From a virus (taxonomy: Duplodnaviria; Caudoviricetes), in the IMG/VR virus record IMGVR_UViG_3300037484_001209, positions 1 through 38,395 of that record: DNA of 38,395 bases; one strand, written 5' to 3'. Within the stretch, counting starts at the first letter, position 1. Each line of letters starts with the position of its first letter. The translations under genes were made by a program, and so were the position numbers. Below, one piece after another: positions 31 to 35,834 of this stretch. Below the pieces are notes generated by a model. It was given only the letters and a program-made list of their open reading frames with translations. It had not been told where the DNA came from and did not search any database.

Positions 31-765
31 TTATGCCGCAGCAAGATATGTAGCCGAGATCATTAGCTCACCCCCAGTGCTAACTTCTTGTACCAATAAA
101 GACGAAATGCCAACAGACGTATCCCAATTGTGTAAAATTATCGACGTGGAATTTACCTTCACATATCCGCAGGGCACGTTCCCAGCGGCAATTGCTAATC
201 CAAGTCCGTATCCTACTGTTATAGATGAATACACCCCCGCGTTTTCAGATACAAATGGTAAACCGTATATTATTATCGCCTTTGTTCCTATCATTGGTGC
301 GTAAGTGGTGGTCTCGATGCCTATTCTCAAATTTATTTGTACCAATCTTCCTATTTTTATATAATTTCCCACTTGATATCGATGATTTGCCGCCGATAAA
401 ATATTTCCTGAGATATCTCTAAATTCTGGTGTAAATGTTCCTTCCTCGTAATCATCTAAAGTGTTTACGTTGGCGGAGGGAACTTGAGCAGACGGAAAAG
501 TTATTCCCTTATTAGCGTATATTAATTCCGTGGATTTAAACGAACCACTGGTGGTAACCGAAGAAGACAGAATCAAATCTCCTGTTGAATTTATTATTTT
601 TCCGCGGACATCAAGATTCTGATTAACAAAAAAATTATCTGAACCTGTAACATAAAATTCAGGAACCAATATAGAAGAACTCAAAGACAATTTTGTAATC
701 TGTTTACCTGGCGCTGTAACGCCATAGTTTAAGGTTAAATTTTGATTCCTGCTCTTATTGACCAT
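31..765 (-). CDS. Tail fibre / virion-associated protein (244 aa)
   Basis: Contains NTLDDYEEGTFTP followed by YIKIGRLV...IYGLPF, a C-terminal module common in phage tail-fibre proteins. Last gene of the baseplate run. Confidence 0.7.
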   Translation of the reverse strand: MVNKSRNQNLTLNYGVTAPGKQITKLSLSSSILVPEFYVTGSDNFFVNQNLDVRGKIINSTGDLILSSSVTTSGSFKSTELIYANKGITFPSAQVPSANVNTLDDYEEGTFTPEFRDISGNILSAANHRYQVGNYIKIGRLVQINLRIGIETTTYAPMIGTKAIIIYGLPFVSENAGVYSSITVGYGLGLAIAAGNVPCGYVKVNSTSIILHNWDTSVGISSLLVQEVSTGGELMISATYLAAA

Positions 766-773
766 AAAATATA

Positions 774-3125
774 TTACGTTTCGTTTGTGTTTTTATCTGC
801 TTTAATTAACCTTCCCCATATGATAAGGTTTTTATTTTCTTCTGCCTGTCCTACGCGATGTTTTGCCTTCACGCGCGCCTCGCGTACATTTGTCAGTGGT
901 ATATCAATCGGAAACCCTATTTCCGTTATACTAAGATCTCCGTAGTTTATTGACTTTTTGTATTCTATATCCCGCAGAATTCCTTCAACCTTACTCCCAG
1001 AAACCAAATATTCTATAGCATGTTCAGGAGCATAACCAAGATTCTTTAGGGGTTTCCTCTCTACCATAATAATAACATCATCCAGTGTTCCACTAAACTC
1101 TTTTTTCACATAACAATATAGAGACAAATGATCATGCTCTGTTACGTTATAGCTAGTACCTGGTTGAAACTCTGTTGTCAGCTTACCTGAGCGCTCGCCC
1201 GCAGAAAAATCCCCAAAGCCTTTAATGAGACCTTCCGTGTCACTCTGGGATGGCCACATTACATGGACAACAGATCCAAAGTGATTTACCTGAATTATGC
1301 TGTCTTCTGTATTTCCTATTTTGCCTGTAGTTTGAGATCCCAAAATCATGCTTGGCATCTGGAAAATCCCACACGAATGTGGGAATTCTGCAATGTTGTT
1401 TTGCCAGTGTTGTTCTCGTCTATTTGGGTTTTCATTGATATTCACAAATTTTAAACTTTGATTTTCTACATCCTTAAAGTACTCTACGGCACCATTGGTT
1501 AGTTTTTGATAATAATCAAATTTAATGTTGTCAATGGTTTTGCTTGTCGCGGAACCGTCAGAAGACGACAATCTAACCCTAACATACCCAACAGGCGGAT
1601 GAGAAAGTAATCGACCCGTATTATAGCTTGAAGAAAGTCCGCCAGAAATAGAAGTTATAGAGCCATAACTAATATCAGACCAGGAAGTTTTACTTCCACT
1701 CAAATCATTTGTTACTATTTCTACAAAGTCAGAAAATTGACCATCATAGTCGAAATCCAGAGAAAAATTGTATGTGGAGGCTTCTCTTTTCGAGAGATTG
1801 AAAAGGGAAGACATTTGCGAATCTGAAAATTCATACCCACGAACAGAATCTTTAAATTTCAAACCATAAACCAGTTCACACGGATAAGCCGCCTTGAATT
1901 TACTTTTGTCTTGATTGAGCAAACTCTGGAGGGACAGACTATAGATAGAGCCAGTGTTGTTTGTCCCTACTGCAAATAGCAAATTTTTATATTTATCCGT
2001 CACAACAAAACCGTAAGAACTTTGATATATTGGGTTGTTACATACGTTTTTCCAGTAATCGCCGTTGCTAGAGGAATTCACATACCCAGCACCTCCAGCA
2101 AGTAGCCATAAATTATTGTCATAGTCCTCCTTGATGTAATTTACTCCAACAATAAATGCAGCAAGAGAATAAAAACTAGACTGTTCCCACGATCCACTCA
2201 CTCCACCAGCCGTGGAGAGAAAAAGCCCATCGCCAGAGTACGTCCAAAAAAAACCATTACTATCAAAGTAAAGAACGTTATCGTTACCGTTAAAATGGTT
2301 CGGATAATAGAAGTTATCCACCCATGAGCCAGAGCCGTACAGGGGGGCAGAAAGAAGGGATCCGCTTAAACCAACTCCCCACGTATTAAATTGGTAATTT
2401 TTCATCGCGGCGACAGACAAGGTACTTCCGCTGTATAGGAACCCGTGACAGGTAATTTCTGTAGGGCAGTAAATCGAATTTATTTTTTCGAATGTACCAG
2501 CAGCGCCGCCCTGGCTGGAGGTGAAGATATTAAACTCTACCTTATTGTGCGCGACTGCGCCGAGGGCAATAATATTCTCGTCATCTTGATTTATATCGAA
2601 TTTGAAATCATTCATAAAATCCACACCAGACAGACCATCGTTGCCCCTATCAGTGAGAGCCGAGGAAGATTGAAAAACTAGATCCCAAGATACCCCCTCA
2701 TTGGAGGAATAAAACAAAACTACAGATTGATCGGCGGCGAGGTTTTGGTAGGATCCTGACTTTCCGAGAACATAAATTTCTCCAGCGGAATTTAATTTTA
2801 TATCGTGGAATGCCGCGCTACATTGTGTTTTAACAATATCCCAGTTATCACCGTCATCTACGCTCTTAGCTATAAATCCATAGTAACCAACCAATCCTAT
2901 CGAATATATAATCCCTAAATCTTTATTTGTTGCTATATTATAAACTGCGGCGTCTACCACATCAGAAGATGTGGAATATACAGAAAACAATGAACCAGTC
3001 ATGGATGCCCGAGCGGAGAGTTCAATGTATTTTTTATTGTTAGAAAAATAATGTTCTTGATCTATCGAAGAGTCTACACTCTTTATCCTAAAACCGTTAC
3101 CTAGCTTTTTGTTAACAAATGACAT
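774..3125 (-). CDS. Virion structural protein with BNR/Asp-box beta-propeller repeats (783 aa)
   Basis: Asp-box-like repeats KSVDDGDNW, YSSNEGVSW, SSSNGDYW, STAGGVSGSW. Ser/Gly-rich and located in the baseplate operon. Confidence 0.65.
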   Translation of the reverse strand: MSFVNKKLGNGFRIKSVDSSIDQEHYFSNNKKYIELSARASMTGSLFSVYSTSSDVVDAAVYNIATNKDLGIIYSIGLVGYYGFIAKSVDDGDNWDIVKTQCSAAFHDIKLNSAGEIYVLGKSGSYQNLAADQSVVLFYSSNEGVSWDLVFQSSSALTDRGNDGLSGVDFMNDFKFDINQDDENIIALGAVAHNKVEFNIFTSSQGGAAGTFEKINSIYCPTEITCHGFLYSGSTLSVAAMKNYQFNTWGVGLSGSLLSAPLYGSGSWVDNFYYPNHFNGNDNVLYFDSNGFFWTYSGDGLFLSTAGGVSGSWEQSSFYSLAAFIVGVNYIKEDYDNNLWLLAGGAGYVNSSSNGDYWKNVCNNPIYQSSYGFVVTDKYKNLLFAVGTNNTGSIYSLSLQSLLNQDKSKFKAAYPCELVYGLKFKDSVRGYEFSDSQMSSLFNLSKREASTYNFSLDFDYDGQFSDFVEIVTNDLSGSKTSWSDISYGSITSISGGLSSSYNTGRLLSHPPVGYVRVRLSSSDGSATSKTIDNIKFDYYQKLTNGAVEYFKDVENQSLKFVNINENPNRREQHWQNNIAEFPHSCGIFQMPSMILGSQTTGKIGNTEDSIIQVNHFGSVVHVMWPSQSDTEGLIKGFGDFSAGERSGKLTTEFQPGTSYNVTEHDHLSLYCYVKKEFSGTLDDVIIMVERKPLKNLGYAPEHAIEYLVSGSKVEGILRDIEYKKSINYGDLSITEIGFPIDIPLTNVREARVKAKHRVGQAEENKNLIIWGRLIKADKNTNET

Positions 3126-3155
3126 TATTTATTTATTCCGTTTTTTAGTGTATAG

Positions 3156-6100
3156 TTAATTGTTGTTTCTATCTTTGTCTGCTAATATGTTTTTAGTGTA
3201 ATAATTTTTGAAGTTTAAAGATTCTTGAGAATCTTTATTGTCAATTAAGGTACTTCCGTTAATCTTTTGAGCATAAAAAGACGGCCTATATGTATTGATA
3301 ATTGGAGTAGTCGCCTGGAAGAGTGTACCCGTAATATTCAAACTAGCGGAGGCCAAAAGAGAAGGAATGCCAAGTAACCCCTCGCCCTCGCCGCCCAAAA
3401 TGGCGGCGAGGGCGAGGTTGTAATTACTTACACAAGAAGCATAAATATACTCACCTCCCTCTGACGAGTTTACGGAAGGTATAAAATTACAAATATTGTT
3501 TTGAGAAATTAAATTAACATCTTTATTACTTAATTTAATTTCATGAAGTGAAGAGCCAGCGACAATATTATAAGCAAGGAACTGATCAGAGTCAAGAACG
3601 TGAGCGCCAAATATTAAGTACTGTTCGCCAGAAGAATAATCTTTAATCAGTTTCGCGGAATCGATAGAACTAACCCCAGGCGTGCCATATTGATAAAAAT
3701 CTAATAACGTATTTCCTGAATCTTCAGATTTTAATATCACACCTATTGAAGGGAGTACTAATTCTCCATAGAAATATAAAACACTTGAATCTTTTTCTTT
3801 TTCTGCCCCATTTAGAGTGTAGAGACTAGAGGTGAAAACAGTAGACCAACTAGATCCACCATTAATCGTAGTTCTAATAATCCCATACTGATCGTTGAAA
3901 TTGCTTCCAACTACAACAATATTATTTTCATCCACGCATACGATATTTCTTGGACGCTCTTGAGGACACAGCACACCGTCTGTTCCTGGATAGAAAATCA
4001 TATCGCTCGTTCCCCACGAGCCCGTAATTCCAAGCGAAGAGGATCTTACAACCCATGCAGATCTATTAGCTGCGCCAGATAAAAACATACCATCGCCAGC
4101 GCAATACAATTTTCCAGAAGGAGCAATACTTAATGACCTTGCCGTGGACGTATAAGAAGTACCCGAGCTGGGCATAAAAATGTCAACAGATCCCCACGAC
4201 CCCGAGGCGCCCCCAAGAGAAGATGACCTTACACAAAAAGATCTGCTTAGTTGCCCGCACGCATAAATTGTATCGTCTGAATCGTTCAGCGTGAAAGCAC
4301 GTACAGCATCAAAAAGATAGCTCTCATATCCGAATAATACGTCATTAGACAACGAGGAAAAAACGTTCCCCACGATAGGATAAGGCCGACCCTGATCTAC
4401 AATTTCCCACGGTGAACCAGATCCAGATCTGTAAATGGTCCACTGGCCATCGTGGCCCTCACTAGAAGGAGACACCATGGTTCCCCCCACAAACAAATAA
4501 AAACCGCTAGAAAAAACAGCATAAGGAGTAAAGGACCCGCTATTAAAATCTAAAGCCTTGAATGTAAATTTGTGTGCAGGATCGGTCGGCTTTGAATTTC
4601 TCCAATCCTTTGATGCGCCATCGGCAAATGTCGATACCATCCTGCTCTGTATTGACGCATCAATAGCCACCGACGACTCCCGTGGGAGCGTAAAAATACC
4701 ATCAACAGTGTGCTTTGTATCGCTTTCGTAAGCAGATCGAACCTGTGTACCTTTTGTGGCGTTGGTGTCTGCGAAGTAATTCATGTTGTTCGCAGAGATG
4801 ACCGACGAAGCACTAATCGCAGCTTCAGGTATTTCTACTGGGGTTCGGAAAATCGGATATTTGTAGCCGTACCGTGGGCGTTCGAGAAAATGGCTTTCAA
4901 CCACATGTTCGCCGCCGACGAATTTCACCCTGGCAGGGAGAAGTTGTTTGATTGAATCGCTGATCTTTCTGTCAAACCACTTAAATAGTTCAAAAAATGC
5001 CGTAAAATGGACGCTATCACCTAATCTTTCAAAATAAATCCTTCTATACGCTTCCAGATCAGCATACTCGTCTCTATACTTATTTACAGGATTTCCTATT
5101 GCCTCATTCAAGACATCAAATGTAGAAAATATTTTTGTAATATCTTTATTTAGCGCATCAACCAAGCTAAATTCCAGCGAAACTTCATTCGTATCATCTG
5201 CAAGATCTTGAATTGATAATTCAGTTTTGTTTCTGATTCTTATTTTGTTTTCTGTCCAGCGCAGATCCACAGACGGACTCAGATGACTATATTCAAGCAA
5301 AAATTTCTTGTATGGGTTGTGGTTCCCCAGAAACATAGAGCCTGTGGCCGTATGGCCGTTTCTAGACAAATCTAAAACACCATTGAGGTTACCAGCGGTG
5401 TCGGTAATTACATTTTCTCCCAGGGGCCAGTGAGCGCGTAGAGGGTGCGGTGTCTCAGCTGGATTATTGGTTCCAACGCTAAGGAAATTTAATGCATGAT
5501 CATTCATTTCGGATGAAGACAATTGACGATTCCAATATCTGTATTCCCCCATAAATCCCTGGGCAGGGAACTGGAACAGGGAACCAGACGATGCACCCAT
5601 AATAAAATCAAATTCATCAGTCAACAACTCCACAAAAGCGCCCGTCATGGCAGAAGAACCGATGAACGATGAACTGAAATCCAATTCACCATTTCTAGTA
5701 GTTCTAACTTCGATAAACGGCATTGCTGTAGGGGAAATACCTGCAACAAGATAAACTATATCGCCATTAAATACTGGCACAGACGATCCAGAGAAGAAAT
5801 ATCCATCGCTAGATGTTAACATGAACTTTCCAGAAGTGGATCCTAGTGTGTCAACATTCCACAGCAACGATACAGAAGAGCTAGCACCAGCAGGATCCAC
5901 AAATTGCCATACAGCGCCAGTCAGTAGACTGGCCGCATAACTTGCAGAAGCGAATGGTAATTGTATTGTGGTTTCGACTGTATAACTACCGTTAGTGACC
6001 GCGCCCTGCACGGATGGAACCTTAATGAAACTTGAGCTTAAACTCCCAGTCCCGAAGCCCATCAGGGATGTAACTTTTTCTTTATTTATTCTTTCATCAA

Positions 6101-8252
6101 TAACAGATCCGCCAGGAAGGTAGCCGTATTCTTTAATGTTAATATTTTCTTTGTTGATCCCTAGCACGTTAAAAAACGCATCCAAATTGTTCCGTTTACC
6201 CTTTGTCGCCAAAAGGTACGGGAGGTTGTTTAAAATTCTTCTCCAAAATTGATTTCTGATCTCATACAAGGGAACTTCCAAGCTTCCAGAAGCCAAAACT
6301 CCATCGCCAAAAAAGAATTCAAGAGGATTGGCATCTCCAAAATGCTCCGTTATTTTCCATCCAAAATATTTCGTTAAATTAGGCAAAAATAAGTCTGGAG
6401 TATCGCCCGCATTATCATAATTTGTGACCTTTAAATTACCGAATTGATCAATGTAGAGCTTTAATTCATCGAAAAATCTAGCCATTGCCAAGCTAAAAGA
6501 AGTTAAGATGTTTTCTTGTTTTAAATCTTCTTCTATCACTCCGATAGAAATCAAATTGAAAATATAATTGTTATTATTTGTATCGTATAATGATGCAGAA
6601 AGTACCAAACTCGCACTAAATTGCAAAACATCAGGATGAAAATTGTACAAAATAGGGTCTCCAGGATCTGCGGTATACGCAGCACCTGAGACGCGAGAAG
6701 TGGAAGAATTATAATTTACAATTTTACCATGAATTCCATTTTTAGAATAGTCTATGACCAAAGAATCAACAGAATCTACATCAGTAACGCCTTCGTTAAA
6801 TTTATAATATAATGAAACATAGCTATTAGAATCAATGGGTCTGCTGTAGTTTTTAGAGTAAAAAAGACTACTTGCAGTGTGTAAAACCATAACATTATCA
6901 ATCGAACCAGAATACATATCGAAAGAAGAAGAGGCATGATACAGAGTGCTACCACTGCCAATGAAAATTTTATTTGGTATCTTCTCAATCGGACCATAGC
7001 TTATGAGTGCGGAGTTTTTGCATTGGTTATTAACAAAAAGTGAGGCAACTTGGCCATCATAAATGGCACCAACAGAATTAAAACTGGAAGTGAAAGAAGA
7101 ATAAGAACAACTCAGGGAAATTTTCTCTGACCCCGAAAAGAAATCAAATTTCAAATAAGAATCGGCGGCGCCAGAAAAATACAACTCATAGCCAATCTTG
7201 TTGTCCAAATACCCCGTCAAGGGTGTTTTTACATAATTTATCGATATTTCATTGCTTGATAAAACTTCCGATAATTGAGCACCCAAAATATAAGTATTGA
7301 CAGTAGAATTATCACCAACAAATGTCCTATCTGAATCGCCCGTGGCAGGACCTACGTTATAATCGTGCAACCCTGTGCCTGCGGCCAGAAAAAGGCCAGA
7401 ACACCTGTACCAGCCATTCCCGACAGATTCAATGTAAATTTCATCGAACGGGCCCGCAGAGCCCACTACCCCACTTATAAGATCAAAATACGCTTCGGCG
7501 CCCGCTATCCCCACCACATCCATATGAATCCAGGGTTTATTGCCTGGCTTGGCGTACACAGAAAAAAGATACTCAGCGCCAACCGTTAATTGCCGAGCTT
7601 GGCTTACGAAATGCTCGGACGATACACTATTGGCCACCAAAGAAACAGAATCCGTGTTGCCAAAAGGATCCAGTATGCCCGCATCCAATGACGCAGTAGT
7701 ATTATATTTCACCCAATTATCTGTATCAAAATTTTCCGAAGCGGAAAGTAAATTTTGATATTTAACGGTGTCAATCAATACTGGGTTCATGCCGTTAATG
7801 ATAGGGTTGACCCACGCAGATACCTGGAGTGATGATGAACCCAACAGCAGTGAGTTATTTACGTCGGAAGCACTAATATATTGGTCAATTCCATCAAGCT
7901 CTATATACCCTACATGTCGTGGCCACTGATCAAAAACATACTTTTCATACCCAGATCCCGTCAAATGAAACGCATCTTTTTCTTCCGTAGACCCGTTGTA
8001 AGGATAGTCATTTAAGATTTTCTTTTTTGCAATTTCAAATTTTGAAACAGCCGAATCAAAAAAAACATGGTTAGAAAAATCAGAATAATCTATCCTAAGT
8101 TCAGTTTTCGTCTTACTTTCAAGTAATCTTTTTATTTTTTCTCTTTCTTCTATGAAATCACCAAGATCATCAAAAGATAAAGTCGGCGAGGCGAAAGAAT
8201 TCCTGGCTTTAAGCTCTGGATTTACTAACTTTAAATTAGTTTTTCGATCCAT
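3156..8252 (-). CDS. Large multidomain baseplate wedge/receptor-binding protein: LamG-like domains, wedge (P2 gpI / T4 gp7-like) segment, C-terminal beta-propeller (1698 aa)
   Basis: LamG signatures (IELDGIDQYI...VSAWVNP; AIYDGQVASLFVNN...YSGSIDNV; YYKFNEG; EYRYWNRQLS; AHWPLGE). Wedge-like segment LPNLTKYFGW...FWRRILNNLPYLLATKG. Asp-box-like repeats near the C-terminus. Lies downstream of gp6. Confidence 0.7.
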   Translation of the reverse strand: MDRKTNLKLVNPELKARNSFASPTLSFDDLGDFIEEREKIKRLLESKTKTELRIDYSDFSNHVFFDSAVSKFEIAKKKILNDYPYNGSTEEKDAFHLTGSGYEKYVFDQWPRHVGYIELDGIDQYISASDVNNSLLLGSSSLQVSAWVNPIINGMNPVLIDTVKYQNLLSASENFDTDNWVKYNTTASLDAGILDPFGNTDSVSLVANSVSSEHFVSQARQLTVGAEYLFSVYAKPGNKPWIHMDVVGIAGAEAYFDLISGVVGSAGPFDEIYIESVGNGWYRCSGLFLAAGTGLHDYNVGPATGDSDRTFVGDNSTVNTYILGAQLSEVLSSNEISINYVKTPLTGYLDNKIGYELYFSGAADSYLKFDFFSGSEKISLSCSYSSFTSSFNSVGAIYDGQVASLFVNNQCKNSALISYGPIEKIPNKIFIGSGSTLYHASSSFDMYSGSIDNVMVLHTASSLFYSKNYSRPIDSNSYVSLYYKFNEGVTDVDSVDSLVIDYSKNGIHGKIVNYNSSTSRVSGAAYTADPGDPILYNFHPDVLQFSASLVLSASLYDTNNNNYIFNLISIGVIEEDLKQENILTSFSLAMARFFDELKLYIDQFGNLKVTNYDNAGDTPDLFLPNLTKYFGWKITEHFGDANPLEFFFGDGVLASGSLEVPLYEIRNQFWRRILNNLPYLLATKGKRNNLDAFFNVLGINKENINIKEYGYLPGGSVIDERINKEKVTSLMGFGTGSLSSSFIKVPSVQGAVTNGSYTVETTIQLPFASASYAASLLTGAVWQFVDPAGASSSVSLLWNVDTLGSTSGKFMLTSSDGYFFSGSSVPVFNGDIVYLVAGISPTAMPFIEVRTTRNGELDFSSSFIGSSAMTGAFVELLTDEFDFIMGASSGSLFQFPAQGFMGEYRYWNRQLSSSEMNDHALNFLSVGTNNPAETPHPLRAHWPLGENVITDTAGNLNGVLDLSRNGHTATGSMFLGNHNPYKKFLLEYSHLSPSVDLRWTENKIRIRNKTELSIQDLADDTNEVSLEFSLVDALNKDITKIFSTFDVLNEAIGNPVNKYRDEYADLEAYRRIYFERLGDSVHFTAFFELFKWFDRKISDSIKQLLPARVKFVGGEHVVESHFLERPRYGYKYPIFRTPVEIPEAAISASSVISANNMNYFADTNATKGTQVRSAYESDTKHTVDGIFTLPRESSVAIDASIQSRMVSTFADGASKDWRNSKPTDPAHKFTFKALDFNSGSFTPYAVFSSGFYLFVGGTMVSPSSEGHDGQWTIYRSGSGSPWEIVDQGRPYPIVGNVFSSLSNDVLFGYESYLFDAVRAFTLNDSDDTIYACGQLSRSFCVRSSSLGGASGSWGSVDIFMPSSGTSYTSTARSLSIAPSGKLYCAGDGMFLSGAANRSAWVVRSSSLGITGSWGTSDMIFYPGTDGVLCPQERPRNIVCVDENNIVVVGSNFNDQYGIIRTTINGGSSWSTVFTSSLYTLNGAEKEKDSSVLYFYGELVLPSIGVILKSEDSGNTLLDFYQYGTPGVSSIDSAKLIKDYSSGEQYLIFGAHVLDSDQFLAYNIVAGSSLHEIKLSNKDVNLISQNNICNFIPSVNSSEGGEYIYASCVSNYNLALAAILGGEGEGLLGIPSLLASASLNITGTLFQATTPIINTYRPSFYAQKINGSTLIDNKDSQESLNFKNYYTKNILADKDRNNN
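3380..3417. repeat. Perfect 16-bp GC-rich inverted repeat with 6-nt loop, inside a CDS
   Basis: CCTCGCCCTCGCCGCC (3380-3395), loop CAAAAT, GGCGGCGAGGGCGAGG (3402-3417). The arms are exact reverse complements. Confidence 0.95.
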
Positions 8253-21619: not shown

Positions 21620-21633
21620 ATCTCATTCGCTTT

Positions 21634-21855: not shown

Positions 21856-21879
21856 TATTTTCTCCTTTTGTTATATAAA

Positions 21880-26944: not shown

Positions 26945-26957
26945 TATATATTATTTC

Positions 26958-28394: not shown

Positions 28395-28987
28395 GTTATA
28401 TTATTGTTTTTGAACGTTATAGAATAAAATCTACTATCTAGAATCTTGTTCAATTCTTTGCTCACATCCTTCCATTCAAGCTCACCCGCACCACATCCTG
28501 GCCTAGGTATCACGATGCAGGTTAAATTGTTTTCATCTGCAATTGTTTTTAATTGTCGTGCAGAATTAAGAATGATATTTAAATCTGCTTTCGCCGCCCA
28601 CCCTGGAACGGTATTTCCAATTTTAAACAGATTAATCATATGTTTAACTACATTGTTTCCGTCAAATTTGGTATAGTCTGGCTTTACGGGAAAAGCATAA
28701 AGACGAGCATTAATTTCCTTGAACTTTCCTAAATTATGAACCTTTCCCGCACCATCCGAGGAAATAAGAGAACCGAGCAATAAATCTAAATTTGCATATT
28801 TGAATTTATATAGAGCTTCCAGAGCACAACCACGGCCCATTACTGCTCCGCCATTTTTTTTAACAAATCCGTTAGTTGTTATACAAATAGCATCTGGAGA
28901 TATATTTGTGTGTAAAAAGCCACGAGTAGGTAGTGGTTGAATTAAATAAGATTTGGGGTTAAACAAATCTCCGTATAGATCTATCAT
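28391..28987 (-). CDS. Macrodomain protein, TARG1/DarG/Poa1-like (198 aa)
   Basis: AICITTN...VMGRGCA, YAFPVK, IVIPRPGCGAGELEWKDV match the TARG1/DarG-type macrodomain pattern. Confidence 0.8.
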   Translation of the reverse strand: MIDLYGDLFNPKSYLIQPLPTRGFLHTNISPDAICITTNGFVKKNGGAVMGRGCALEALYKFKYANLDLLLGSLISSDGAGKVHNLGKFKEINARLYAFPVKPDYTKFDGNNVVKHMINLFKIGNTVPGWAAKADLNIILNSARQLKTIADENNLTCIVIPRPGCGAGELEWKDVSKELNKILDSRFYSITFKNNNIT

Positions 28988-28999
28988 TGTTGTTTTCTC

Positions 29000-29788
29000 C
29001 TATCGTATTTTAACATACCATGGAATAAGGTTTGGGTGCCATACTGCTGGGTGGTTAACGTTACTGTACCCTCTTGTTTTCCATTTGTCAACAAAAAAAG
29101 CGTACGGTTTGTTGGAATCTTTATCAATAGTTTGTTGATTGTTCGATTTCCCCTGTAGATGATATACGAGAGAATCGTATACGACCCAAAAACGACGGCA
29201 ACCTGAATGATAGGCTTCCTGAACCAAATCGTCGTCCGTACAATACGAATAATAGGAAGGGTCAACACCATTCATTTTTTCCCACAATTTTCGGTGCATA
29301 AAAAACGGCATTCGATAACCTGACACGATTGTATTGTCTTTATATTCTTTAAAGTCGTGGAGTAGCTTTTCTTCTTCGAATTCATTCCATTCTTTTCCAT
29401 AATCTTTTATTACATGAAATTCTGTGTGACCCTTGGTGGGCTCGATAGACCGCGAGCAAAGAAGAAAAGAGGCTGGTGGGAGATTTTTTACGGCAGATAG
29501 CATCGGCGTATCCCAACCTGGAAGAAGGTACATATCAGTGTGTGGTAGATAAAAGAAATCCCCTGCGGCGACCCTAGCACATTCGTTTAACGCAGCATTG
29601 AGCCCAACATTTTTACCATTGCCTATTATTTTTATATTTACATCAGGTTCTAGTCTACCATTCCCGCCATTATCGTATATTATCAATTCAGTTTCTACGG
29701 AAGTGTTTTTTCTCCACCCTGGGAGAAATACTCTTTCTAGTAGTTGCTCGGACTTGTATGCTGCGAGGAGGAGACTAATTTTTGACAT
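29000..29788 (-). CDS. Glycosyltransferase family 2, paralog of 26958..27758 (262 aa)
   Basis: LIIYDNG, NVGLNAALN, HTDMYLLPGWD, GVDPSYY...DDD, VYHL. Confidence 0.87.
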   Translation of the reverse strand: MSKISLLLAAYKSEQLLERVFLPGWRKNTSVETELIIYDNGGNGRLEPDVNIKIIGNGKNVGLNAALNECARVAAGDFFYLPHTDMYLLPGWDTPMLSAVKNLPPASFLLCSRSIEPTKGHTEFHVIKDYGKEWNEFEEEKLLHDFKEYKDNTIVSGYRMPFFMHRKLWEKMNGVDPSYYSYCTDDDLVQEAYHSGCRRFWVVYDSLVYHLQGKSNNQQTIDKDSNKPYAFFVDKWKTRGYSNVNHPAVWHPNLIPWYVKIR

Positions 29789-30485
29789 AAAGTAAAAATC
29801 CCCCCATGTGTCCCTTCAGACGGCTCTCGGCTCCACTAATACATTTGACGGTGTAGCCGTTCTTTGCAAAAGCGTTCATTTGAATGCATCTTTCCCAAAA
29901 ATTATCACTCACCTGATCGTCTATAAAAATTACAAATTTGTCTTGGGTACTCCGTTTAAACTCGCTAAGCTCCTTGAGCATATGACTCATGGTGTGCAAG
30001 CTATCGTGAGAGAAGAAGGATGTGCCTAGAAATGCTTCTTTTGGGTACTTTTCCTTTATATAAAGTAAAGAGTCCGTCCCTGTTTCCAATTCCCAGTTAA
30101 TCGAGCCCTTCCAGCGCTCGGGCACCAGGGTAGCAATTTTAGATAAATCATCAGATAATTCTACAGAAGTAACCCGACCGTAGTGTTTTCCCGCGGCTTC
30201 CAAAATAAAAGAGGTATAATATCCTCCCGAAACACCCGTTTCGAAGGAAAATATTGGTTTATAATATCTTATTAAGGCGTATATAACACACCCATTAAGA
30301 GTTGTTCCAGCCCCGCCGAGGGGAGTACGTTTTTTCCAGTCAAAATCTTTTTCTCTGTCTATTATGATCCTTTTAAGATCTGGGTTTAGTTTTATCTCTT
30401 TTTCGACGTAATTTTCATAAAGATTTTCATTTATGTCAAAAGCTTCCTGAACATCTTCTAGCGCTATCTTTATTAGCTCCCACAT
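29775..30485 (-). CDS. Class I SAM-dependent methyltransferase, Methyltransf_24-like (236 aa)
   Basis: FETGVSGGYYT, TSVEL, FSHDSLHT, IFIDD. Confidence 0.78.
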   Translation of the reverse strand: MWELIKIALEDVQEAFDINENLYENYVEKEIKLNPDLKRIIIDREKDFDWKKRTPLGGAGTTLNGCVIYALIRYYKPIFSFETGVSGGYYTSFILEAAGKHYGRVTSVELSDDLSKIATLVPERWKGSINWELETGTDSLLYIKEKYPKEAFLGTSFFSHDSLHTMSHMLKELSEFKRSTQDKFVIFIDDQVSDNFWERCIQMNAFAKNGYTVKCISGAESRLKGHMGGFLLYVKN

Positions 30486-30488
30486 TTT

Positions 30489-31487
30489 TTATTCTTTGTG
30501 CGTTTGTACAGACTCTATCCACTCCTGCATTATGGAGGGTCCTGGTTGATCTAGCTTGAATTTATATTTTACTTTGTCGCTATCCTCGCCACCTTGTTTG
30601 TAAAGATGCTGCGCGAGTTTTTGTACTTCTTCTAGGATTTCGAAATCGAATCCTGGAAATCTGTCTTGTGATTCTTCTTGATAGAGCAGCGACCACAGCT
30701 TATCCCAGACCCCTCCCTTCTTCAGCTGTTCAGTCTTTCTTGGGATAGAACACCAAGAATAATGGTACACGGAGGGTATGTGGTTTACGAGTTGATTTAT
30801 GATTTTGGCATAATCGGCTGGGACGTACAGTCTTGCTGTCTCAATTTGATCGCTGTAAAATCCAACATGAGGCAACATTTCATTATTCATGGTGTTTACG
30901 TATTCGCAACCATCCGACATTCCTTTCTTGGCATAAACGCGACCTGTTTTTTCGTCGGTGACTCTGGCATGATTGTTTATGCCGTGAGTAATCTCTGGCT
31001 TATTGCGGGATAATCTCCACTTCCAGGCATGTCGCCGCCCTGTAACCTCTTCGCCGTTACCCCACATTTCGATTACAGGAAGGTGAAGGATGTCTGCTTG
31101 TTTGGGAAATTTTTTTACCATAAGCTTGATTTTTTCGTAATCTCTTTCGTGGCATACCTCATCACAATCTTGCTGCCACAAGAACTCATTCTCACACAAA
31201 GCCCGCGCGAAACCCTTTTGAATGCCGTCGATGCCAGGCTCTTCCCAGTCAAATTCCTTTTGAAATAATTTAATTTTGTTATCTTTTTCGGCCTCAGACT
31301 GCAGCAGCTCCCAAGTTCCATCGGTAGAACATCCGTCAACCACAACCACTTCGTCACAAAACCCTAACATGCTTTTAATCGATTCTACAAACGGATAACT
31401 TGCCGCGTTGTAGGTGGTAGTATATCCCGATATCTTTCTGTAAATTGGTTGATATGCGAATTCTTGATTTCGTGTTAGTTTATTCAT
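30489..31487 (-). CDS. Glycosyltransferase family 2 (332 aa)
   Basis: YPFVESIKSMLGFCDEVVVVDGCSTDGT, QQDCDEV, VYHYSW. Confidence 0.88.
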   Translation of the reverse strand: MNKLTRNQEFAYQPIYRKISGYTTTYNAASYPFVESIKSMLGFCDEVVVVDGCSTDGTWELLQSEAEKDNKIKLFQKEFDWEEPGIDGIQKGFARALCENEFLWQQDCDEVCHERDYEKIKLMVKKFPKQADILHLPVIEMWGNGEEVTGRRHAWKWRLSRNKPEITHGINNHARVTDEKTGRVYAKKGMSDGCEYVNTMNNEMLPHVGFYSDQIETARLYVPADYAKIINQLVNHIPSVYHYSWCSIPRKTEQLKKGGVWDKLWSLLYQEESQDRFPGFDFEILEEVQKLAQHLYKQGGEDSDKVKYKFKLDQPGPSIMQEWIESVQTHKE

Positions 31488-32389
31488 GATGGTACTCCAT
31501 ATTGTTGTAATATATTTCTTATATTTCCTTCTGTTATTTTTTCTAGAAATGATATCCTAACGAAATGTTTTATGTCATTTTTGTTGTTAGCGATTTTTAA
31601 GTTTTTAATTTTGTCCATTTTTTGAATATATTTTAACTTTGACTCCCCCCCAAAGATTTTAACTTCTTTAAAGTGTTGCTCTCCGTCGTATTCTATTGCT
31701 AATTTTATTTCTGGCACAAACAAATCTAACCGCATGCGGCGGCGGTTTTTTAGCCAGCCAAATTTATTATATTCTGTTAAAATTTTATAATCTGGATAAA
31801 TTCTACAAAGTATATCTTTTATTTTTGTTACAGTCCTTCCCGTCTTACATGAGGGACACCACGTTTTACCGTTCAAGAGCGAATCGAAGCATGCCATCCA
31901 GGTGTGACCTTTTTTGCATTTCCATGAAAGTTTCGTATGAGCGTTTTTATAGGATTTAGATAAACACTCTCCACCCATAAGACCTGCAAACTCTTTTATA
32001 AAACTTAAATCGTGCTTGCTTACTCCCGCGCATATAGCACACCATTTATTTTTATTTTTAATATTGTCGAAATTTGCATGCCACATATGTCCTTTGGCGC
32101 ATTCCCACTGTAATAATTCTTTAGCGTTATTATATACAGAGCTTAAACATCTGCCGTTTTTGAGGGCAGCCACCTCGCGGCATTTGGTTATTGAGTGTTT
32201 TAAGACTTCGCTGCAAGAAGCACATTTACTTTTTCTAAACGATGAATAACTACAATAATATTCATAACCACAAACTTTGCACATCAATAAAAGCTTGGTA
32301 TTGCAATTTTTATACGTGCCAGAAACAATAATTATATTATTATTTTTTAATAATTTAACAATATAATTGTGGCTAAGCGCTTTTCCCAT
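31484..32389 (-). CDS. Putative free-standing homing endonuclease: Zn-ribbon repeats plus Vsr-like PD-(D/E)xK domain (301 aa)
   Basis: Repeats G.CLS..Y.NA...L.W.C.KGH.W.A.FD.....WC..C (two clear copies, one degenerate). C-terminal RLDLFVPEIKLAIEYDGEQHF. Confidence 0.75.
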   Translation of the reverse strand: MGKALSHNYIVKLLKNNNIIIVSGTYKNCNTKLLLMCKVCGYEYYCSYSSFRKSKCASCSEVLKHSITKCREVAALKNGRCLSSVYNNAKELLQWECAKGHMWHANFDNIKNKNKWCAICAGVSKHDLSFIKEFAGLMGGECLSKSYKNAHTKLSWKCKKGHTWMACFDSLLNGKTWCPSCKTGRTVTKIKDILCRIYPDYKILTEYNKFGWLKNRRRMRLDLFVPEIKLAIEYDGEQHFKEVKIFGGESKLKYIQKMDKIKNLKIANNKNDIKHFVRISFLEKITEGNIRNILQQYGVPS

Positions 32390-32395
32390 TTCTTA

Positions 32396-34567
32396 TTATT
32401 CGTATTCTTTTAGTAATCTTACGCAAGCCTTAAATATTTCTTCTGCTGCAATTTCGTTAATGGGCCCATTTCCGTCTGGGTTTTTGACACATCTATTTTT
32501 GTAGCACGCGCGATCAACGCAACCGCTTCTTCGTTCGCTCTGTAAAAGAATATACTTGGCAGATGCCATATCTGGGACCCACGGGCCTGTACTCGATGCG
32601 TAAGAACATCCGAAAATCGCCACCAAGGGTGTCCCCAACCCCGCCGCCACATGCATAGGCGCACTGTCGATTCCTACATGCACCACGGCACCCGAAAGTA
32701 CCTGTGCAAGTTGATTATAGGACGTTTTTCCTCTTAGATCGATATCCACTTCGGCGTACTGTTTATCTTCCCCTGCTCCTACTTGCACGACTTTCAAATC
32801 TGGATAGAGGGATTTTAAATTTTGTAGAACTTCACTCCACTCTTCATAATTTCTCGCCTCCCATCGCCCCACACCCGAGCCAGGGTGGAAAGTTAGATAT
32901 GCGCCACCTGATTCGTTAAACCCTTCAATCGCTTCCTTCTGTATGAAATAATTTCCAAGTTTTGTATTGCAGTGATTCGCATACTCATCAGCGAGCAATC
33001 TCCCTTGCCCTCTTTTGATCCAATTGCTGAATGTATATTGTGTTGCGACATTGGGGGTGAGGGCAAGATCAAATAAACCCTCTAGTAGATCTACATTGAT
33101 CATAGTCTCGTTCCACGGAATAACCTTGTGAATATGTGGATTATCTTTTAATATATCCACATATTTCATATCGGTTGCAAAATAAATTTTGCATTCTGGT
33201 GGTAATTCTTTTACTAGCCCATCAATTACTGCTGTCGAAATATAGACATCACCCGCGCTCATGGGCATTGTGTATATGACATTGTAATCGTTAGGTGTAT
33301 CAATAAACGCCTGAAGGTGCCCTTGGGGCGATATTTTGCTCTCTGTCTCTCGAATTAAGTGCTGTCTGATGGTATTTACGAAGTTTTCGCCTACTTTTTT
33401 GGTGTCAAACTCGTCTCGAACTGTTGCAGATAGTTCCTGCGCCCACTCATATGGCTTGATGTAAGATGATATAATTTTTCTCATCTTTCGTTTTACGTCG
33501 TCTTCTTTTGCGTTGGCCCATCGTGAGCCCTTAATCATTACATTTTCCCACACAGCAACGTCGGGGATCTCGCGTAAGTCGTACTCCACTGGAAGCCATT
33601 TGCCTCTGTTTAGAAAATCAAGATGGCCCGACCAATTTGTAGCAATAACTGGCAATCCGCAGGCGGAGGCCTCTAATAGAGGTAAGCCGAATCCTTCACC
33701 GTGAGTGAGCGAAATAAATGCCTTAATCTTTGGGTGGTTATAAAGATCTGCCATCTCCTCGTCAGTCAAGTTTGCGTGAATTAGGTAAATTGAGGGCACG
33801 TCTTCTGCTTTGAAATTTGATTTAATTTCCTGTAATCGAGTCTTTACTAAACTATAATCCATCAAAGAATTCTTAGCCATGTTGACTTTTAATACAAGAC
33901 CAACATCCTTTCTTCCTTTAAAAGTTTCAATGAAGTATTTTACAAGCAGTGCGATGTTTTTACGATCTTCGCCGTACGTGCCTCGTCCCCATTGCCCGAC
34001 ATGAAGAAAATTAAATTCTGGCTCAAGATCAAAAAGATTTTTTTCTATCACACGAGGAAGAAATAGACTGGTATCTACACCTTCGTGACACACGATAACA
34101 GGTTTTACTACTTTCATTTGTCCCGATTGCTGCGTTCTGGGATCCTGCCACTCTACAATAGTGTTACAAAGGCTTTCCTTGCTGTGTTCGCTGGGAACGA
34201 CAATCAAATCCATTTCGTTGCATTTCTGCACCCATACAACCGCGACACGATCAACTTCAATCCCTGCCGTTACCCCAACGTTGAAAGTACCTTGCCTTTC
34301 AAATTCGTTTGGGATTGTAATGTGAACAAAGAGATCAAACTTATTATTTCCGTTGTGTTTTTCGGCAACTCTTTTTTCTACAAGCTTACGGATGGTTTGC
34401 TTTTCCTCTGTATTCTCGGTGAGAAATGAGGTATGCCCCCAGTTTATATTTTCGACATGTACATCGAAAATAGGATCTTGAAGCAACGCTGTGAGAATCT
34501 CGCGAGCATGTTTTCCATAGCCTGATTGTGTCAAAACTGGACCTTTTAGCAGCGTCTTAATCTTCAT
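32396..34567 (-). CDS. Bifunctional glycosyltransferase: N-terminal GT4 plus C-terminal GT9 (ADP-heptose heptosyltransferase-like) (723 aa)
   Basis: GT4: SGYGKHAR...RKNI...EGFGLPLLEASACGLPVIATNWSGHLDF. GT9: SAGDVYIST...ILKDNPHIHKV...FHPGSG...DLRGKTSYNQLAQVL...VGIDSAPMHVAAGLGTPLVAIFG plus a C-terminal Cys cluster. Confidence 0.9.
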   Translation of the reverse strand: MKIKTLLKGPVLTQSGYGKHAREILTALLQDPIFDVHVENINWGHTSFLTENTEEKQTIRKLVEKRVAEKHNGNNKFDLFVHITIPNEFERQGTFNVGVTAGIEVDRVAVVWVQKCNEMDLIVVPSEHSKESLCNTIVEWQDPRTQQSGQMKVVKPVIVCHEGVDTSLFLPRVIEKNLFDLEPEFNFLHVGQWGRGTYGEDRKNIALLVKYFIETFKGRKDVGLVLKVNMAKNSLMDYSLVKTRLQEIKSNFKAEDVPSIYLIHANLTDEEMADLYNHPKIKAFISLTHGEGFGLPLLEASACGLPVIATNWSGHLDFLNRGKWLPVEYDLREIPDVAVWENVMIKGSRWANAKEDDVKRKMRKIISSYIKPYEWAQELSATVRDEFDTKKVGENFVNTIRQHLIRETESKISPQGHLQAFIDTPNDYNVIYTMPMSAGDVYISTAVIDGLVKELPPECKIYFATDMKYVDILKDNPHIHKVIPWNETMINVDLLEGLFDLALTPNVATQYTFSNWIKRGQGRLLADEYANHCNTKLGNYFIQKEAIEGFNESGGAYLTFHPGSGVGRWEARNYEEWSEVLQNLKSLYPDLKVVQVGAGEDKQYAEVDIDLRGKTSYNQLAQVLSGAVVHVGIDSAPMHVAAGLGTPLVAIFGCSYASSTGPWVPDMASAKYILLQSERRSGCVDRACYKNRCVKNPDGNGPINEIAAEEIFKACVRLLKEYE

Positions 34568-34580
34568 TTACAATCTCCAA

Positions 34581-35834
34581 TTAAATTTTAGTAAATTTTA
34601 TTCTATTTTTATTTCCGTGTTCTTTATATTCTTTGATTTTTTTGGACAAAGCACCATCCCATGAATTTACCATGTCGTCAAGCTTGAAAAGCTTTCGCGC
34701 ATGTTCTGCACACTCTTGTCCTAACTTTTCAATATCCGCTTGTGTCATATTGTACATTTTAAGATATGCGGCCAAAATATCTTCATCGGCACATCGGCAA
34801 TCAAAAATATACGGAATTTGTTGACTGCCTGTTAGTGATTTTACTTTGGGGTATATTGATACACCATACTCTTTTCCTGTTTCTGCATCGTAATTTTGAT
34901 CCTGCAGCCCGCCCGTGCGTACAGAGATGACGGGGGTTCCGCACATTAAGCTCTCTAAGCTGCTCAGCCCGAACCCTTCATTGTTGCTCAGGTTGACCGT
35001 ACAGTCTGCAATATTGTAAAATATAGCCATTTGCTCTGGCGGAACCCTCTGGCTAGAGAAGGCAATTTGATCCTGTCGGAGCCCAAGGAGCTTACATACC
35101 TCAAGAAGGTTTGCCCCTTCGAGGTCGTGAGGATCTGAGTGAAGTAATAGAAACGCCTTATCTTGTCCTACTACGTCTAACGTTTCCTTAAAGGTTTTTA
35201 TAACATCAGAAGTCATTTTACGTCTAGCGTTACGGCTATTGTAAAAATACATAAATTTGTCTTTATTGGATCCAAGCGCCGCCGCTTTGTGTTTTGCTAT
35301 ATCTGCGGTGGAAAATGGTCGAAATACTTTTTTGTCTACAGCGTGTGGGATATAGCCACAATCTGCGTGATTTAACGAGGTTAAGATGCTGTGAGTTAGT
35401 TTGGAAATACAGCCGACATAATCACACGAATCGTAAAAGTCCTTATTGAACTCGGGGATTGGGAACTCGTCCCACACATGATAGTACAAAATGGGGATTC
35501 CTCTGTCCTTTATTTCGTCGGACATCCCAATCAACCACGAATAGAATCTAGGGTCGGTCATTATCCAGATTGCATCTGGCTTTTCCACTTCCATTAGCTC
35601 TCTTACTATGGTCTCATCGCCGTAGCCATCAACTGGAAAAATAATCCAATCATCTCCGAACTCTTGCACCTTCTGGGGTCTGTAGTCTGGATGTTTTACT
35701 GCCCCCCCCAAGCTCCTTATTTGATATCTGCCAGTCCTAAGCAGCCCCTCGAAAATGTATTTAGATTGCGTCCCCACTCCAGAGCTAACCAGGGGATGGT
35801 CGCCGAAGGTTAAAATTTTATATTTTTCTGTCAT
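34581..35834 (-). CDS. Glycosyltransferase family 4 (417 aa)
   Basis: SSGVGTQ, IPHAVD, RNARRK, EGFGLSSLESLMCGTPVISVRTGGLQDQ. Confidence 0.9.
   Translation of the reverse strand: MTEKYKILTFGDHPLVSSGVGTQSKYIFEGLLRTGRYQIRSLGGAVKHPDYRPQKVQEFGDDWIIFPVDGYGDETIVRELMEVEKPDAIWIMTDPRFYSWLIGMSDEIKDRGIPILYYHVWDEFPIPEFNKDFYDSCDYVGCISKLTHSILTSLNHADCGYIPHAVDKKVFRPFSTADIAKHKAAALGSNKDKFMYFYNSRNARRKMTSDVIKTFKETLDVVGQDKAFLLLHSDPHDLEGANLLEVCKLLGLRQDQIAFSSQRVPPEQMAIFYNIADCTVNLSNNEGFGLSSLESLMCGTPVISVRTGGLQDQNYDAETGKEYGVSIYPKVKSLTGSQQIPYIFDCRCADEDILAAYLKMYNMTQADIEKLGQECAEHARKLFKLDDMVNSWDGALSKKIKEYKEHGNKNRIKFTKI

What the first reader, a model, noticed from the sequence alone, without database searches (positions are those of the whole stretch)
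31..35834. Candidate phage-encoded, sequon-directed virion O-glycosylation (possibly heptosylation) system
Seen: a ~17.6-kb co-oriented island with 9 GT domains, 3 methyltransferases and several nucleotide-sugar enzymes, including heptose kinase/nucleotidyltransferase and a GT9 domain. It lies upstream of a baseplate module whose presumed outer proteins are full of [S/T]-[G/A]-S tripeptides. Known: virion glycosylation occurs in some mycobacteriophages and in giant viruses, and bacterial autotransporter heptosyltransferases (AAH/TibC) put ADP-heptose-derived heptose on serines. Inference: this phage makes its own sugar donors, attaches a first sugar to Ser/Thr in the tripeptide, then extends and methylates the glycan, giving a glycan-coated virion. 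I do not know of a described phage with a heptose-based, sequon-directed coat.
Basis: partly seen in the sequence, partly recalled or inferred. Interest (0 to 1): 0.92.

Follow-up and report, generated by a model that had tools for sequence, protein, structure and literature searches.

The report
Motif-guided phage sugar coat with heptose
Three tail-region proteins of this large phage carry the tripeptide Ser/Thr-Gly/Ala-Ser four to eight times more often than chance, and it likely marks where two phage-encoded sugar transferases start a sugar coat on the virus particle that is likely extended with heptose, although no chemistry shows this yet.

Summary
The island (17.6 kb, 9 GT domains, 3 methyltransferases, HldA/HldC-like genes) is real. 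The [ST][GA]S excess is real in 3 of 7 structural-region proteins. It is a lineage-wide trait of Immutovirus/RM378-related large myophages and is absent in T4.

The only island genes shared across the lineage are two GT4s, predicted to form a heterodimer (ipSAE 0.87, best control 0.00). They are the likely initiating enzyme.

Heptose is not the sequon sugar: Immuto and 8 of 10 near-complete relatives keep the motif without HldA, and AAH/TibC gives no match. In this phage's own branch, HldA/HldC and a GT4-GT9(-GT2) fusion are conserved, so heptose is likely an extension sugar.

Counter-evidence: one clade keeps the intact pair but lost the rest of the island and most motif sites. The pair is therefore not sufficient, the fold does not need the motif, and the co-variation rests on two events.

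The scan noted the motif, the pair and the cupin before on other DNA. The pair-only clade and the heptose fusion line were not in the notes I saw. Nine literature searches found no description.

Verdict: new variant of virion glycosylation, about 55% likely, testable on cultured Immuto.

The parts
34581..35834 (-). GT4-A, lineage-wide GT-B glycosyltransferase; likely half of the initiating enzyme
   Evidence: Pfam GT4; present in 19 of 19 islands clustered; model pLDDT 86.8; top Foldseek match chlorovirus B736L, 3oy2; predicted to bind GT4-B through its C-terminal residues 410-417
33350..34567 (-). GT4-B domain (residues 1 to about 406 of the 723-aa protein), lineage-wide partner of GT4-A
   Evidence: 19 of 19 islands; E-x7-E motif intact; ipSAE 0.87 vs best control 0.00
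32396..33292 (-). GT9 heptosyltransferase-like domain fused to GT4-B; likely adds heptose to the growing glycan
   Evidence: PF01075 E 1e-14; best NCBIfam matches WaaQ/WaaF type; 116 of the best 119 homologues are GT4-B fusions
31484..32389 (-). Homing-endonuclease-like gene between GT9 and the next GT2 (passenger)
   Evidence: PHROG 559, E 6e-45
30489..31487 (-). GT2; fused behind GT4-B-GT9 in many relatives, likely the next step after heptose
   Evidence: PF00535; on the same chain in 67 of 119 homologues
19962..30485 (-). Variable accessory island: four more GT2, one GT4, three methyltransferases, PseB-like, RmlD-like, epimerase, UDP-sugar dehydrogenase (no Pfam C-terminal domain hit), macrodomain-like gene
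   Evidence: content differs between relatives
19523..19960 (-). HldC-like nucleotidyltransferase
   Evidence: TIGR02199 E 8e-23, under the cut-off
18633..19526 (-). HldA-like heptose-7-phosphate kinase
   Evidence: TIGR02198 E 3e-38, under the cut-off; upstream of the wedge in 14 of 14 own-branch loci with a full 10-kb flank
18224..18631 (-). Cupin (D-lyxose isomerase-like); candidate stand-in for GmhA
   Evidence: near HldA in 11 of 12 distinct loci; GmhA in 0 of 11 HldA-bearing records
9636..11468 (-). gp6-like baseplate wedge; no motif excess; lineage marker
   Evidence: PHROG 219; 0 vs 1.3 motifs; 33-36% identity to Immuto and Mel-JY01
8254..9636 (-). 460-aa baseplate-region protein with a DNRLRE/CBM-like domain; 11 motifs; candidate acceptor
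3156..8252 (-). 1698-aa protein with LamG and spike-fibre domains; 23 motifs; candidate acceptor
774..3125 (-). 783-aa protein with a BNR/beta-propeller-like N-terminal half; 9 motifs; candidate acceptor
   Evidence: atlas model of low confidence, pTM 0.45

Best explanation
This large phage likely glycosylates its own outward-facing virion proteins in the host cytoplasm: a predicted heterodimer of two lineage-wide GT4 enzymes would put the first sugar(s) on a Ser or Thr of the enriched [S/T]-[G/A/S]-S tripeptide, the fused GT9 domain would then add a phage-made heptose, and the fused or adjacent GT2 and the variable island enzymes would extend and methylate the chain. SHOWN: the motif excess and its grammar; conservation of the GT4 pair; the GT4-GT9-GT2 fusions; HldA/HldC conserved in this branch; loss of the motif in relatives whose island shrank to the pair. 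PREDICTED: the heterodimer. INFERRED: that the acceptor is the virion, that the motif is the attachment site, which hydroxyl carries the sugar, the order of steps, and that the donor is a heptose.
For: (1) Lineage-wide excess: 48 of 53 IMG/VR wedge loci at p<1e-3; 30 of 30 further GT4-A-bearing records x2.8-6.8; 26 of 26 own-branch loci x3.9-8.6; Immuto x4.2 and Mel-JY01 x5.5; RM378 x2.2 genome-wide. Controls: T4 x0.37, GAP32 x1.46, LR756511 x0.68, TJE1 x1.0, Mae-JY09 x1.3. (2) Sequon-like grammar in 120,403 pooled residues: SGS x5.0, TGS x5.8, SAS x2.7, TAS x2.8, but SGT x1.7 and other xGS at most x1.2. Pro follows the motif in 7 of 1355 cases vs 38 of 1219 after [^ST][GA]S. (3) The fold does not need it: at the 7 commonest motif columns of the 460-aa family, 118 of 175 cells of positive phages hold the motif vs 4 of 63 in the pair-only clade (counted; alignment). 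(4) Location: excess in tail-sheath, spike and fibre-region proteins and mildly in the major capsid protein; none in the wedge, the 162-aa tail protein behind the sheath, the hub or the tape measure. (5) Only GT4-A and GT4-B recur in all 19 islands clustered. In GTDB, GT4-A appears on 11 MAG contigs; the 5 inspected share the phage gene order. (6) Heterodimer model: score 0.87, best of 3 controls 0.00; the mark was reached by 116 of 157 solved and 2 of 215 mismatched pairs; runs agree in at least 97% of contacts, partner pLDDT at least 90. (7) The island is soluble and hypervariable. (8) Heptose step: HldA in 14 of 14 own-branch loci with a full flank; GT9 fused to GT4-B in 116 of 119 homologues, with the GT2 on the same chain in 67; all 4 GT9-bearing records of 49 also carry HldA, which is in 11 of 49.
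Against: No chemistry. The GT4 pair is not sufficient: 7 of 7 records whose island is the pair alone have intact E-x7-E motifs yet a motif excess of only x0.3-1.9. The co-variation rests on two events: one clade of 10 rows (SH-aLRT 97, quick tree; the careful search did not finish) and LR756508. LR756508 has GT4-A and other sugar genes but no GT4-B, and only 160 of its 484 kb were read. GT4-A's fold matches are mostly small-molecule and lipid GTs (sucrose-phosphate synthase Z 34.6, BshA, PimA), and B736L's own activity is unknown (PMC9614988). Hydrophobic flanks on both sides (58% vs about 40%) also fit a structural strand-turn preference. The excess of Asp/Glu at lost sites is not significant (35 of 169 vs 15.5%, p 0.08). 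HldA and HldC score under the family cut-offs; no GmhA or GmhB was found in this 16%-complete record; 7 of 11 HldA-bearing records have no GT9 hit.
Confidence: 0.55

Rival explanations
1. The virion is glycosylated at the motif, but the sequon-reading enzyme is one of the variable accessory GTs (a GT2-like fold); the GT4 pair does another conserved job.
For: The motif tracks the accessory island, not the pair: 7 of 7 pair-only records are weak or negative. G008, with the pair plus one 220-aa GT2-like gene, is positive at x3.1.
Against: No third family is shared: the G008 gene has 4 homologues among 4804 pooled proteins after three profile rounds, and the commonest other sugar-enzyme cluster is in 14 records. 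A fixed motif read by ever-changing enzymes is less parsimonious. GT4-A itself changed in the pair-only clade: distance ratio to the wedge 1.03 vs 0.67, and 7 near-invariant columns changed (pairs are not independent and not at matched depth).
Confidence: 0.13
2. The island builds a glycan on another acceptor (host envelope lipid or LPS, phage DNA, or a small molecule), and the tripeptide is a separate structural or other post-translational feature of this lineage's tail proteins.
For: GT9 matches LPS heptosyltransferases best. GT4-A resembles small-molecule and lipid GTs. The pair sits next to a PD-(D/E)XK nuclease gene. Phage GTs are known to act on DNA and host serotype (passage in PMC12619734). 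Motif flanks are hydrophobic. Joint loss is seen in two events only.
Against: No transmembrane protein, flippase or polymerase in the island. Orthologues lose the motif and stay alignable over their full length. The motif recurs in unrelated folds (LamG, CBM-like, propeller, fibre, sheath) and is absent from T4. Pro is excluded after the motif.
Confidence: 0.25
3. One reading: an AAH/TibC-like enzyme puts heptose directly on the motif serine.
For: HldA, HldC, the cupin and GT9 are conserved in the window's own branch. Aah adds heptose to Ser/Thr at strand-loop-strand sites (passages in PMC3835316), and 9 of 11 motifs start in coil in the 460-aa model (7 of the 11 lie in segments with pLDDT under 50).
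Against: No TIGR04414 match. Immuto (complete) has neither HldA nor GT9, yet x4.2. Eight of 10 records at least 90% complete lack HldA and are all positive, x3.1-4.2. LR756511 has HldA and no excess in the 50 kb read. The part fused to GT4-B is GT9 here but GT2 or an MptE/Maf-like domain elsewhere.
Confidence: 0.06

Closest known systems
Mycobacteriophage virion O-glycosylation (Freeman et al. 2023, Cell Host Microbe; not held, known here only from citing passages in PMC12619734 and PMC11652166)
   Same: Phage-encoded glycosyltransferases; O-glycans on virion proteins; proposed shield.
   Different: There the glycans are at the C-termini of capsid and tail-tube subunits. Here there are dozens of internal tripeptide sites on baseplate-region, spike and sheath proteins, a conserved GT4 pair, own nucleotide-sugar genes and a hypervariable island. 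No glycan is shown here.
Chlorovirus (PBCV-1, NY-2A) self-encoded capsid glycosylation (passages in PMC9614988)
   Same: Soluble virus-encoded GTs and methyltransferases, multidomain GT fusions, atypical sequons. GT4-A's top Foldseek match is chlorovirus B736L (3oy2, E 2e-19, 17% identity; VIA Z 32.6, rmsd 3.5, 367 aligned, rank 2).
   Different: Those are N-glycans on Asn of a eukaryotic virus. B736L's activity is uncharacterised, and the match is at the level of the general GT4 fold.
AAH/TibC autotransporter heptosyltransferases (passages in PMC3835316)
   Same: Cytoplasmic O-glycosylation of Ser/Thr at many loop sites; heptose chemistry.
   Different: No family match. Aah reads a structural motif with no sequence consensus, whereas here there is an ordered tripeptide. 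Heptose genes are dispensable for the motif.
GtfA/GtfB of serine-rich repeat adhesins (mechanism recalled, no paper read)
   Same: Two adjacent GT-B enzymes acting as a complex to start O-glycans on Ser-rich proteins, followed by variable extending GTs.
   Different: TIGR02918 matches only 62 positions at 18.6 bits (cut-off 574.6). Both phage GT4s keep E-x7-E, whereas GtfB is recalled as non-catalytic. The targets are folded domains, not repeats.
Immutovirus, Mel-JY01, RM378 and the 'moraphages' (PMC12619734: passages and one part of the text)
   Same: The window is a distant member of this group of large myophages (wedge 33-36% identity; shared GT4 pair). Four GT families are reported in the moraphage core genome.
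   Different: That paper proposes no target or motif. Whether the window is a moraphage, or whether its GT4s are those core families, was not tested.

Membership tests
AAH/TibC heptosyltransferase system | Sequence match to TIGR04414 | tested here: not met
   0 candidates at E <= 1 in the window; none at 1e-6
AAH/TibC heptosyltransferase system | Heptose attached directly to Ser/Thr | not testable with these tools
   Needs mass spectrometry; the gene distribution argues against it
AAH/TibC heptosyltransferase system | Acceptor at the start of a strand-loop-strand motif | tested here: inconclusive
   9 of 11 motifs start in coil, but 7 of 11 lie in segments with pLDDT under 50
ADP-heptose pathway (GmhA, HldA, GmhB, HldC, HldD) | HldA kinase and HldC nucleotidyltransferase | tested here: inconclusive
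   Best matches, E 3e-38 and 8e-23, but under the curated cut-offs
ADP-heptose pathway (GmhA, HldA, GmhB, HldC, HldD) | GmhA isomerase | tested here: not met
   None in the window (record 16% complete) or in any of 11 HldA-bearing records, two of them at least 90% complete; a cupin sits in its place
ADP-heptose pathway (GmhA, HldA, GmhB, HldC, HldD) | GmhB phosphatase and HldD epimerase | tested here: inconclusive
   No island ORF annotated as GmhB; epimerase 22827..23852 matches GalE (E 3e-53) better than HldD (7e-32), both under the cut-off; the rest of the genome is missing
GT9 heptosyltransferases | PF01075 over the gathering score | tested here: met
   54.7 bits vs 22
GtfA/GtfB system | TIGR02918 match over the cut-off | tested here: not met
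   18.6 bits vs 574.6
GtfA/GtfB system | Two GT-B proteins forming a complex | tested here: inconclusive
   The model supports binding, 0.87 vs 0.00; a prediction only
Virus-encoded virion glycosylation (mycobacteriophage or chlorovirus kind) | Soluble virus-encoded glycosyltransferases | tested here: met
Virus-encoded virion glycosylation (mycobacteriophage or chlorovirus kind) | Glycan shown on virion proteins and dependent on the viral GTs | not testable with these tools
   Needs mass spectrometry and mutants
Phage DNA glycosylation (hmC or TET plus GT) | GT coupled to a base-hydroxylating or hydroxymethylating enzyme | not tested
   No such family among the window's 46 ORFs; relatives' whole genomes were not searched for it

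The most novel reading that the evidence does not exclude
A very large, mostly uncultured lineage of tailed phages runs its own cytoplasmic, sequence-directed O-glycosylation system. A GT4 heterodimer reads a three-residue sequon, [S/T]-small-S not followed by Pro, on folded virion proteins, and swappable cassettes then build serotype-like coats. In this branch a GT4-GT9-GT2 assembly line makes a heptose-containing coat from a heptose pathway that uses a cupin instead of GmhA.
Probability: 0.4. Interest if true: 0.88.

Novelty: new variant of a known kind. Interest (0 to 1): 0.62.

Why it matters
If true, it gives a sequence rule for spotting glycosylated phage particles from genomes alone, in a lineage with about 12,000 stored IMG/VR stretches matching the wedge patterns (tool estimate). 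It would explain these phages' hypervariable, membrane-free sugar islands, and supply a soluble, short-sequon protein O-glycosyltransferase for glyco-engineering. The pair-only clade is a natural 'uncoated' control. Cultured members (Immuto on Flavobacterium sp. LMO8, RM378) make the idea testable in one mass-spectrometry experiment.

Tried and rejected
- DNA repeat or composition artefact: rejected (40 different 9-mers for 43 motifs; shuffle tests).
- General property of myophage tails: rejected (T4 x0.37; GAP32 x1.46, p 0.012, a slight excess).
- Heptose as the sequon sugar: rejected on gene distribution.
- 'The GT4 pair predicts the motif': rejected as a sufficient condition.
- A replacement motif in the negative clade: all tripeptides and gapped words were screened over about 32,500 residues; no Ser/Thr motif stood out, and the top words look like shared orthologous positions.
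- A single GT4-A residue as predictor (T to I in GVGTQ): fails; G066 and G081 carry I, have large islands and are positive. At the 'KQSG' glycine that changed in all 7 pair-only records, the motif-positive window itself has Ser.
- A universal third GT: not found.
- Spread of the motif to unrelated small phages with distant GT4-A-like genes (TJE1, Mae-JY09; 24-27% identity, no GT4-B hit): none. Unrelated phages with a full pair were not found or tested.
- G010 seemed to have the motif without GT4-A, but its contig ends inside the island.
- GtfA/GtfB chains are not among the listed fold matches of GT4-A; this does not exclude them.
- Single-protein scans of IMG/VR gave one locus each.
- The careful wedge tree did not finish in two runs; the quick tree is used.
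- Whole records of the own-branch metagenome contigs are not held, so their GT4-A/GT9 content is inferred from protein searches and matching contig lengths, not read directly.

Full report
WHAT THE WINDOW IS. The window is the whole held record, a 38-kb virus fragment about 16% complete, with nearly all genes on the minus strand. In order of transcription: nuclease genes, a 17.6-kb sugar island (35834 to 18224), lysis genes and a late-sigma-like gene, a hub-like gene, gp25, a gp6-like wedge, and four large proteins. Among 50,697 phage records the full-length wedge matches only Mel-JY01, the Immuto phages and the 484-kb LR756508, at 33-36% identity (6 of 81 matching records). The protein collection holds at least 2078 relatives. 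The host is unknown.

THE OBSERVATION. The island holds 9 GT domains, 3 methyltransferases and the named nucleotide-sugar genes, and none looks membrane-bound. [ST][GA]S is enriched four- to eightfold in 3 of the 7 structural-region proteins tested and not in the wedge, gp25, the hub-like protein or 31..765. It is not a DNA repeat.

THE MOTIF IS A LINEAGE TRAIT WITH A GRAMMAR. Of 80 IMG/VR wedge loci, 68 were scored and 53 had at least 800 residues downstream; 48 of these 53 were enriched at p<1e-3. Three of the other five are short loci at x2.8-3.9, and two are truly low. Thirty further records (the 30 loci returned of 43 matching, 44 searched) were all enriched. In the window's own branch, 26 of 72 metagenome loci passed the length filter and all 26 were enriched; some are near-duplicates. 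T4, GAP32, LR756511, TJE1 and Mae-JY09 give x0.37, 1.46, 0.68, 1.0 and 1.3. In 38 pooled positive loci the first position takes S or T, the middle G > A > S, and the last almost only S. Pro after the motif is rare (7 of 1355 vs 38 of 1219), charged flanks are depleted and hydrophobic flanks enriched; homologous sites inflate these counts. In the annotated Immuto genome the excess is in spike, fibre-region and sheath proteins and not in the 162-aa tail protein behind the sheath, the hub or the tape measure; capsid proteins show 3-5 motifs vs 1.1-1.6 expected in five genomes.

ONLY A GT4 PAIR IS SHARED. Clustering 333 island-region proteins left GT4-A and GT4-B as the only sugar genes in all 19 records. 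The rest changes from phage to phage: GT2, GT11, GT29, aminotransferases, sulfotransferases. RM378 has GT4-A followed by a diverged GT4-B; LR756508 has GT4-A alone; LR756511 has neither. GT4-A folds as a standard GT4 (pLDDT 86.8). Its top Foldseek match is chlorovirus B736L, second in the VIA list behind sucrose-phosphate synthase; B736L is uncharacterised (PMC9614988, passages). The two GT4s are predicted to bind: score 0.87, best of 3 controls 0.00; the mark was reached by 116 of 157 solved and 2 of 215 mismatched pairs; runs agree in at least 97% of contacts, partner pLDDT at least 90. The closest contacts are GT4-A residues 412-417 with GT4-B residues 259-267. This supports binding and does not show it.

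THE CO-VARIATION TEST GAVE A MIXED ANSWER. Of 44 records scored the same way, 33 are positive (x2.2-5.5) and 11 weak or negative (x0.3-2.1). Seven of the 11 reach the island, and in all seven it is the GT4 pair alone, between the nuclease and the late-sigma genes. Three of these (G077-G079) were picked because their island was bare and then proved low, so that part was a prediction. Three more are fragments that do not reach the island, and one is LR756508. On the wedge tree ten of the 11 form one branch (SH-aLRT 97) nested among positives, so there are two events, not eleven. In the 460-aa family the pair-only clade lost the sites one by one (TGSN to TDSN or TDAN, YSGS to YSDE, YTGS to HSEE) and stayed alignable: 4 of 63 cells vs 118 of 175. 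So the fold does not need the motif. The pair in that clade keeps its catalytic motifs but has drifted faster, and seven near-invariant GT4-A columns changed. G011 keeps 4 motifs in the capsid protein and 6 in the sheath, against 1.1 and 2.4 expected. My reading: the pair primes; the advantage of many sites depends on the extended glycan; after the island was lost the pair kept at most a few sites. The alternative, that an accessory GT reads the motif, is not excluded: G008 is positive with the pair plus a single GT2-like gene, though that gene is rare and the record is 25% complete.

HEPTOSE: AN EXTENSION STEP OF THIS BRANCH. Among 49 records (the window and 48 IMG/VR relatives) HldA is in 11, GT9 in 4 (3 over the cut-off) and GmhA in 2. 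All four GT9 records have HldA (chance 330/211,876 by my arithmetic, ignoring kinship), and no HldA record has GmhA. Eight of the 10 records at least 90% complete lack HldA and are all motif-positive. Immuto has neither HldA nor GT9. AAH/TibC gives no match. So heptose cannot be the lineage's linking sugar. In the window's own branch the picture differs. HldA lies upstream of the wedge in 14 of 14 scored loci with a full 10-kb flank (two are near-identical; L436, with 8.3 kb, shows none; L440 and L479 were dropped by the length filter). The GT9 domain has 173 homologues within the length range searched (397-1266 aa, so stand-alone GT9 proteins could not appear). Of the best 119, 116 are fused to GT4-B and 67 also carry the GT2 that follows in the window. 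A GT4-GT9-GT2 chain suggests an ordered assembly line with heptose after the GT4 sugars; this is inference.

COMPARISON AND NOVELTY. It works like mycobacteriophage and chlorovirus virion glycosylation and, in layout, like GtfA/GtfB (recalled), but it fails the family tests for AAH/TibC and GtfA. Nine literature searches found no description of this motif or of a heptose-bearing phage coat. The library lacks most subscription papers, Freeman 2023 was not held, and no supplements were read. Papers seen: PMC12619734 (passages and part 2 of the text); PMC9614988, PMC3835316, PMC11652166 and PMC12582341 (passages); all others as search listings only. Earlier AI notes of this scan report the same motif with the pair, a predicted binding of the pair and the cupin-for-GmhA idea on other DNA. 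I tested these myself, and their repetition is not support.

VERDICT. Virion O-glycosylation started by the GT4 pair 0.55; started by an accessory GT 0.13; other acceptor 0.25; heptose directly on serine 0.06. New variant of a known kind; interest 0.62.

Noticed in passing
window 18224..18631: A D-lyxose-isomerase-like cupin lies near HldA/HldC in 11 of 12 distinct loci, while GmhA is absent from all 11 HldA-bearing records; candidate non-orthologous heptose isomerase. A HAD-like ORF of about 100-113 aa often sits beside it in relatives but not in the window.
   Followed up: partly
window 31484..32389: A homing-endonuclease-like gene lies exactly between the GT9 end and the GT2 that is fused to it in 67 of 119 homologues; it starts 7 bases after the GT9 stop codon and overlaps the GT2 start. 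Not tested as an intron.
   Followed up: no
window 28391..28987: Macrodomain-like (DarG-like, under the cut-off) gene inside the island; might recycle or remove ADP-linked products.
   Followed up: no
window 19962..20831: The UDP-sugar dehydrogenase is 289 aa with no Pfam hit for the C-terminal UDP-binding domain; own-branch relatives are similarly short (about 290-330 aa).
   Followed up: no
G026, G027, G028, G011, G077-G079 (L398-L400): Pair-only phages have more acidic downstream structural proteins (Asp+Glu 13.8-16.7% vs mostly 10-13.6%), as if charge replaced a glycan; one clade only.
   Followed up: partly
L204:3441-4932 (Mel-JY01): GT4-A is split into two adjacent ORFs (190 and 302 aa), yet the motif excess is strong; the genome also has a 1227-aa GT4...GT9 protein at L200:4747-8430.
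   Followed up: no
L175:10922-12979 (G002): GT4-B is fused to an MptE/Maf-like domain and followed by a PseB-like gene; Maf proteins are recalled as flagellin O-glycosyltransferases.
   Followed up: no
L423:6619-11050: A 4.4-kb phage-like stretch (nuclease, partial GT4-A) sits between masked runs in a WOR-3 MAG chromosome; other GT4-A and GT4-GT9 homologues carry DPANN, CPR or Pelagibacter MAG names, probably mis-binned phage contigs.
   Followed up: partly
L050 and L053, downstream of the wedge: Besides SGS/TGS, T-P-S is strongly enriched (40 vs 3.2 and 32 vs 2.5), probably a repeat protein; it may be a second acceptor type.
   Followed up: no
window 15378..16133 and 17223..17978: Two cell-wall enzymes between island and baseplate: an SLT transglycosylase with an N-terminal hydrophobic segment, and a VanY-like peptidase with a peptidoglycan-binding domain.
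   Followed up: no
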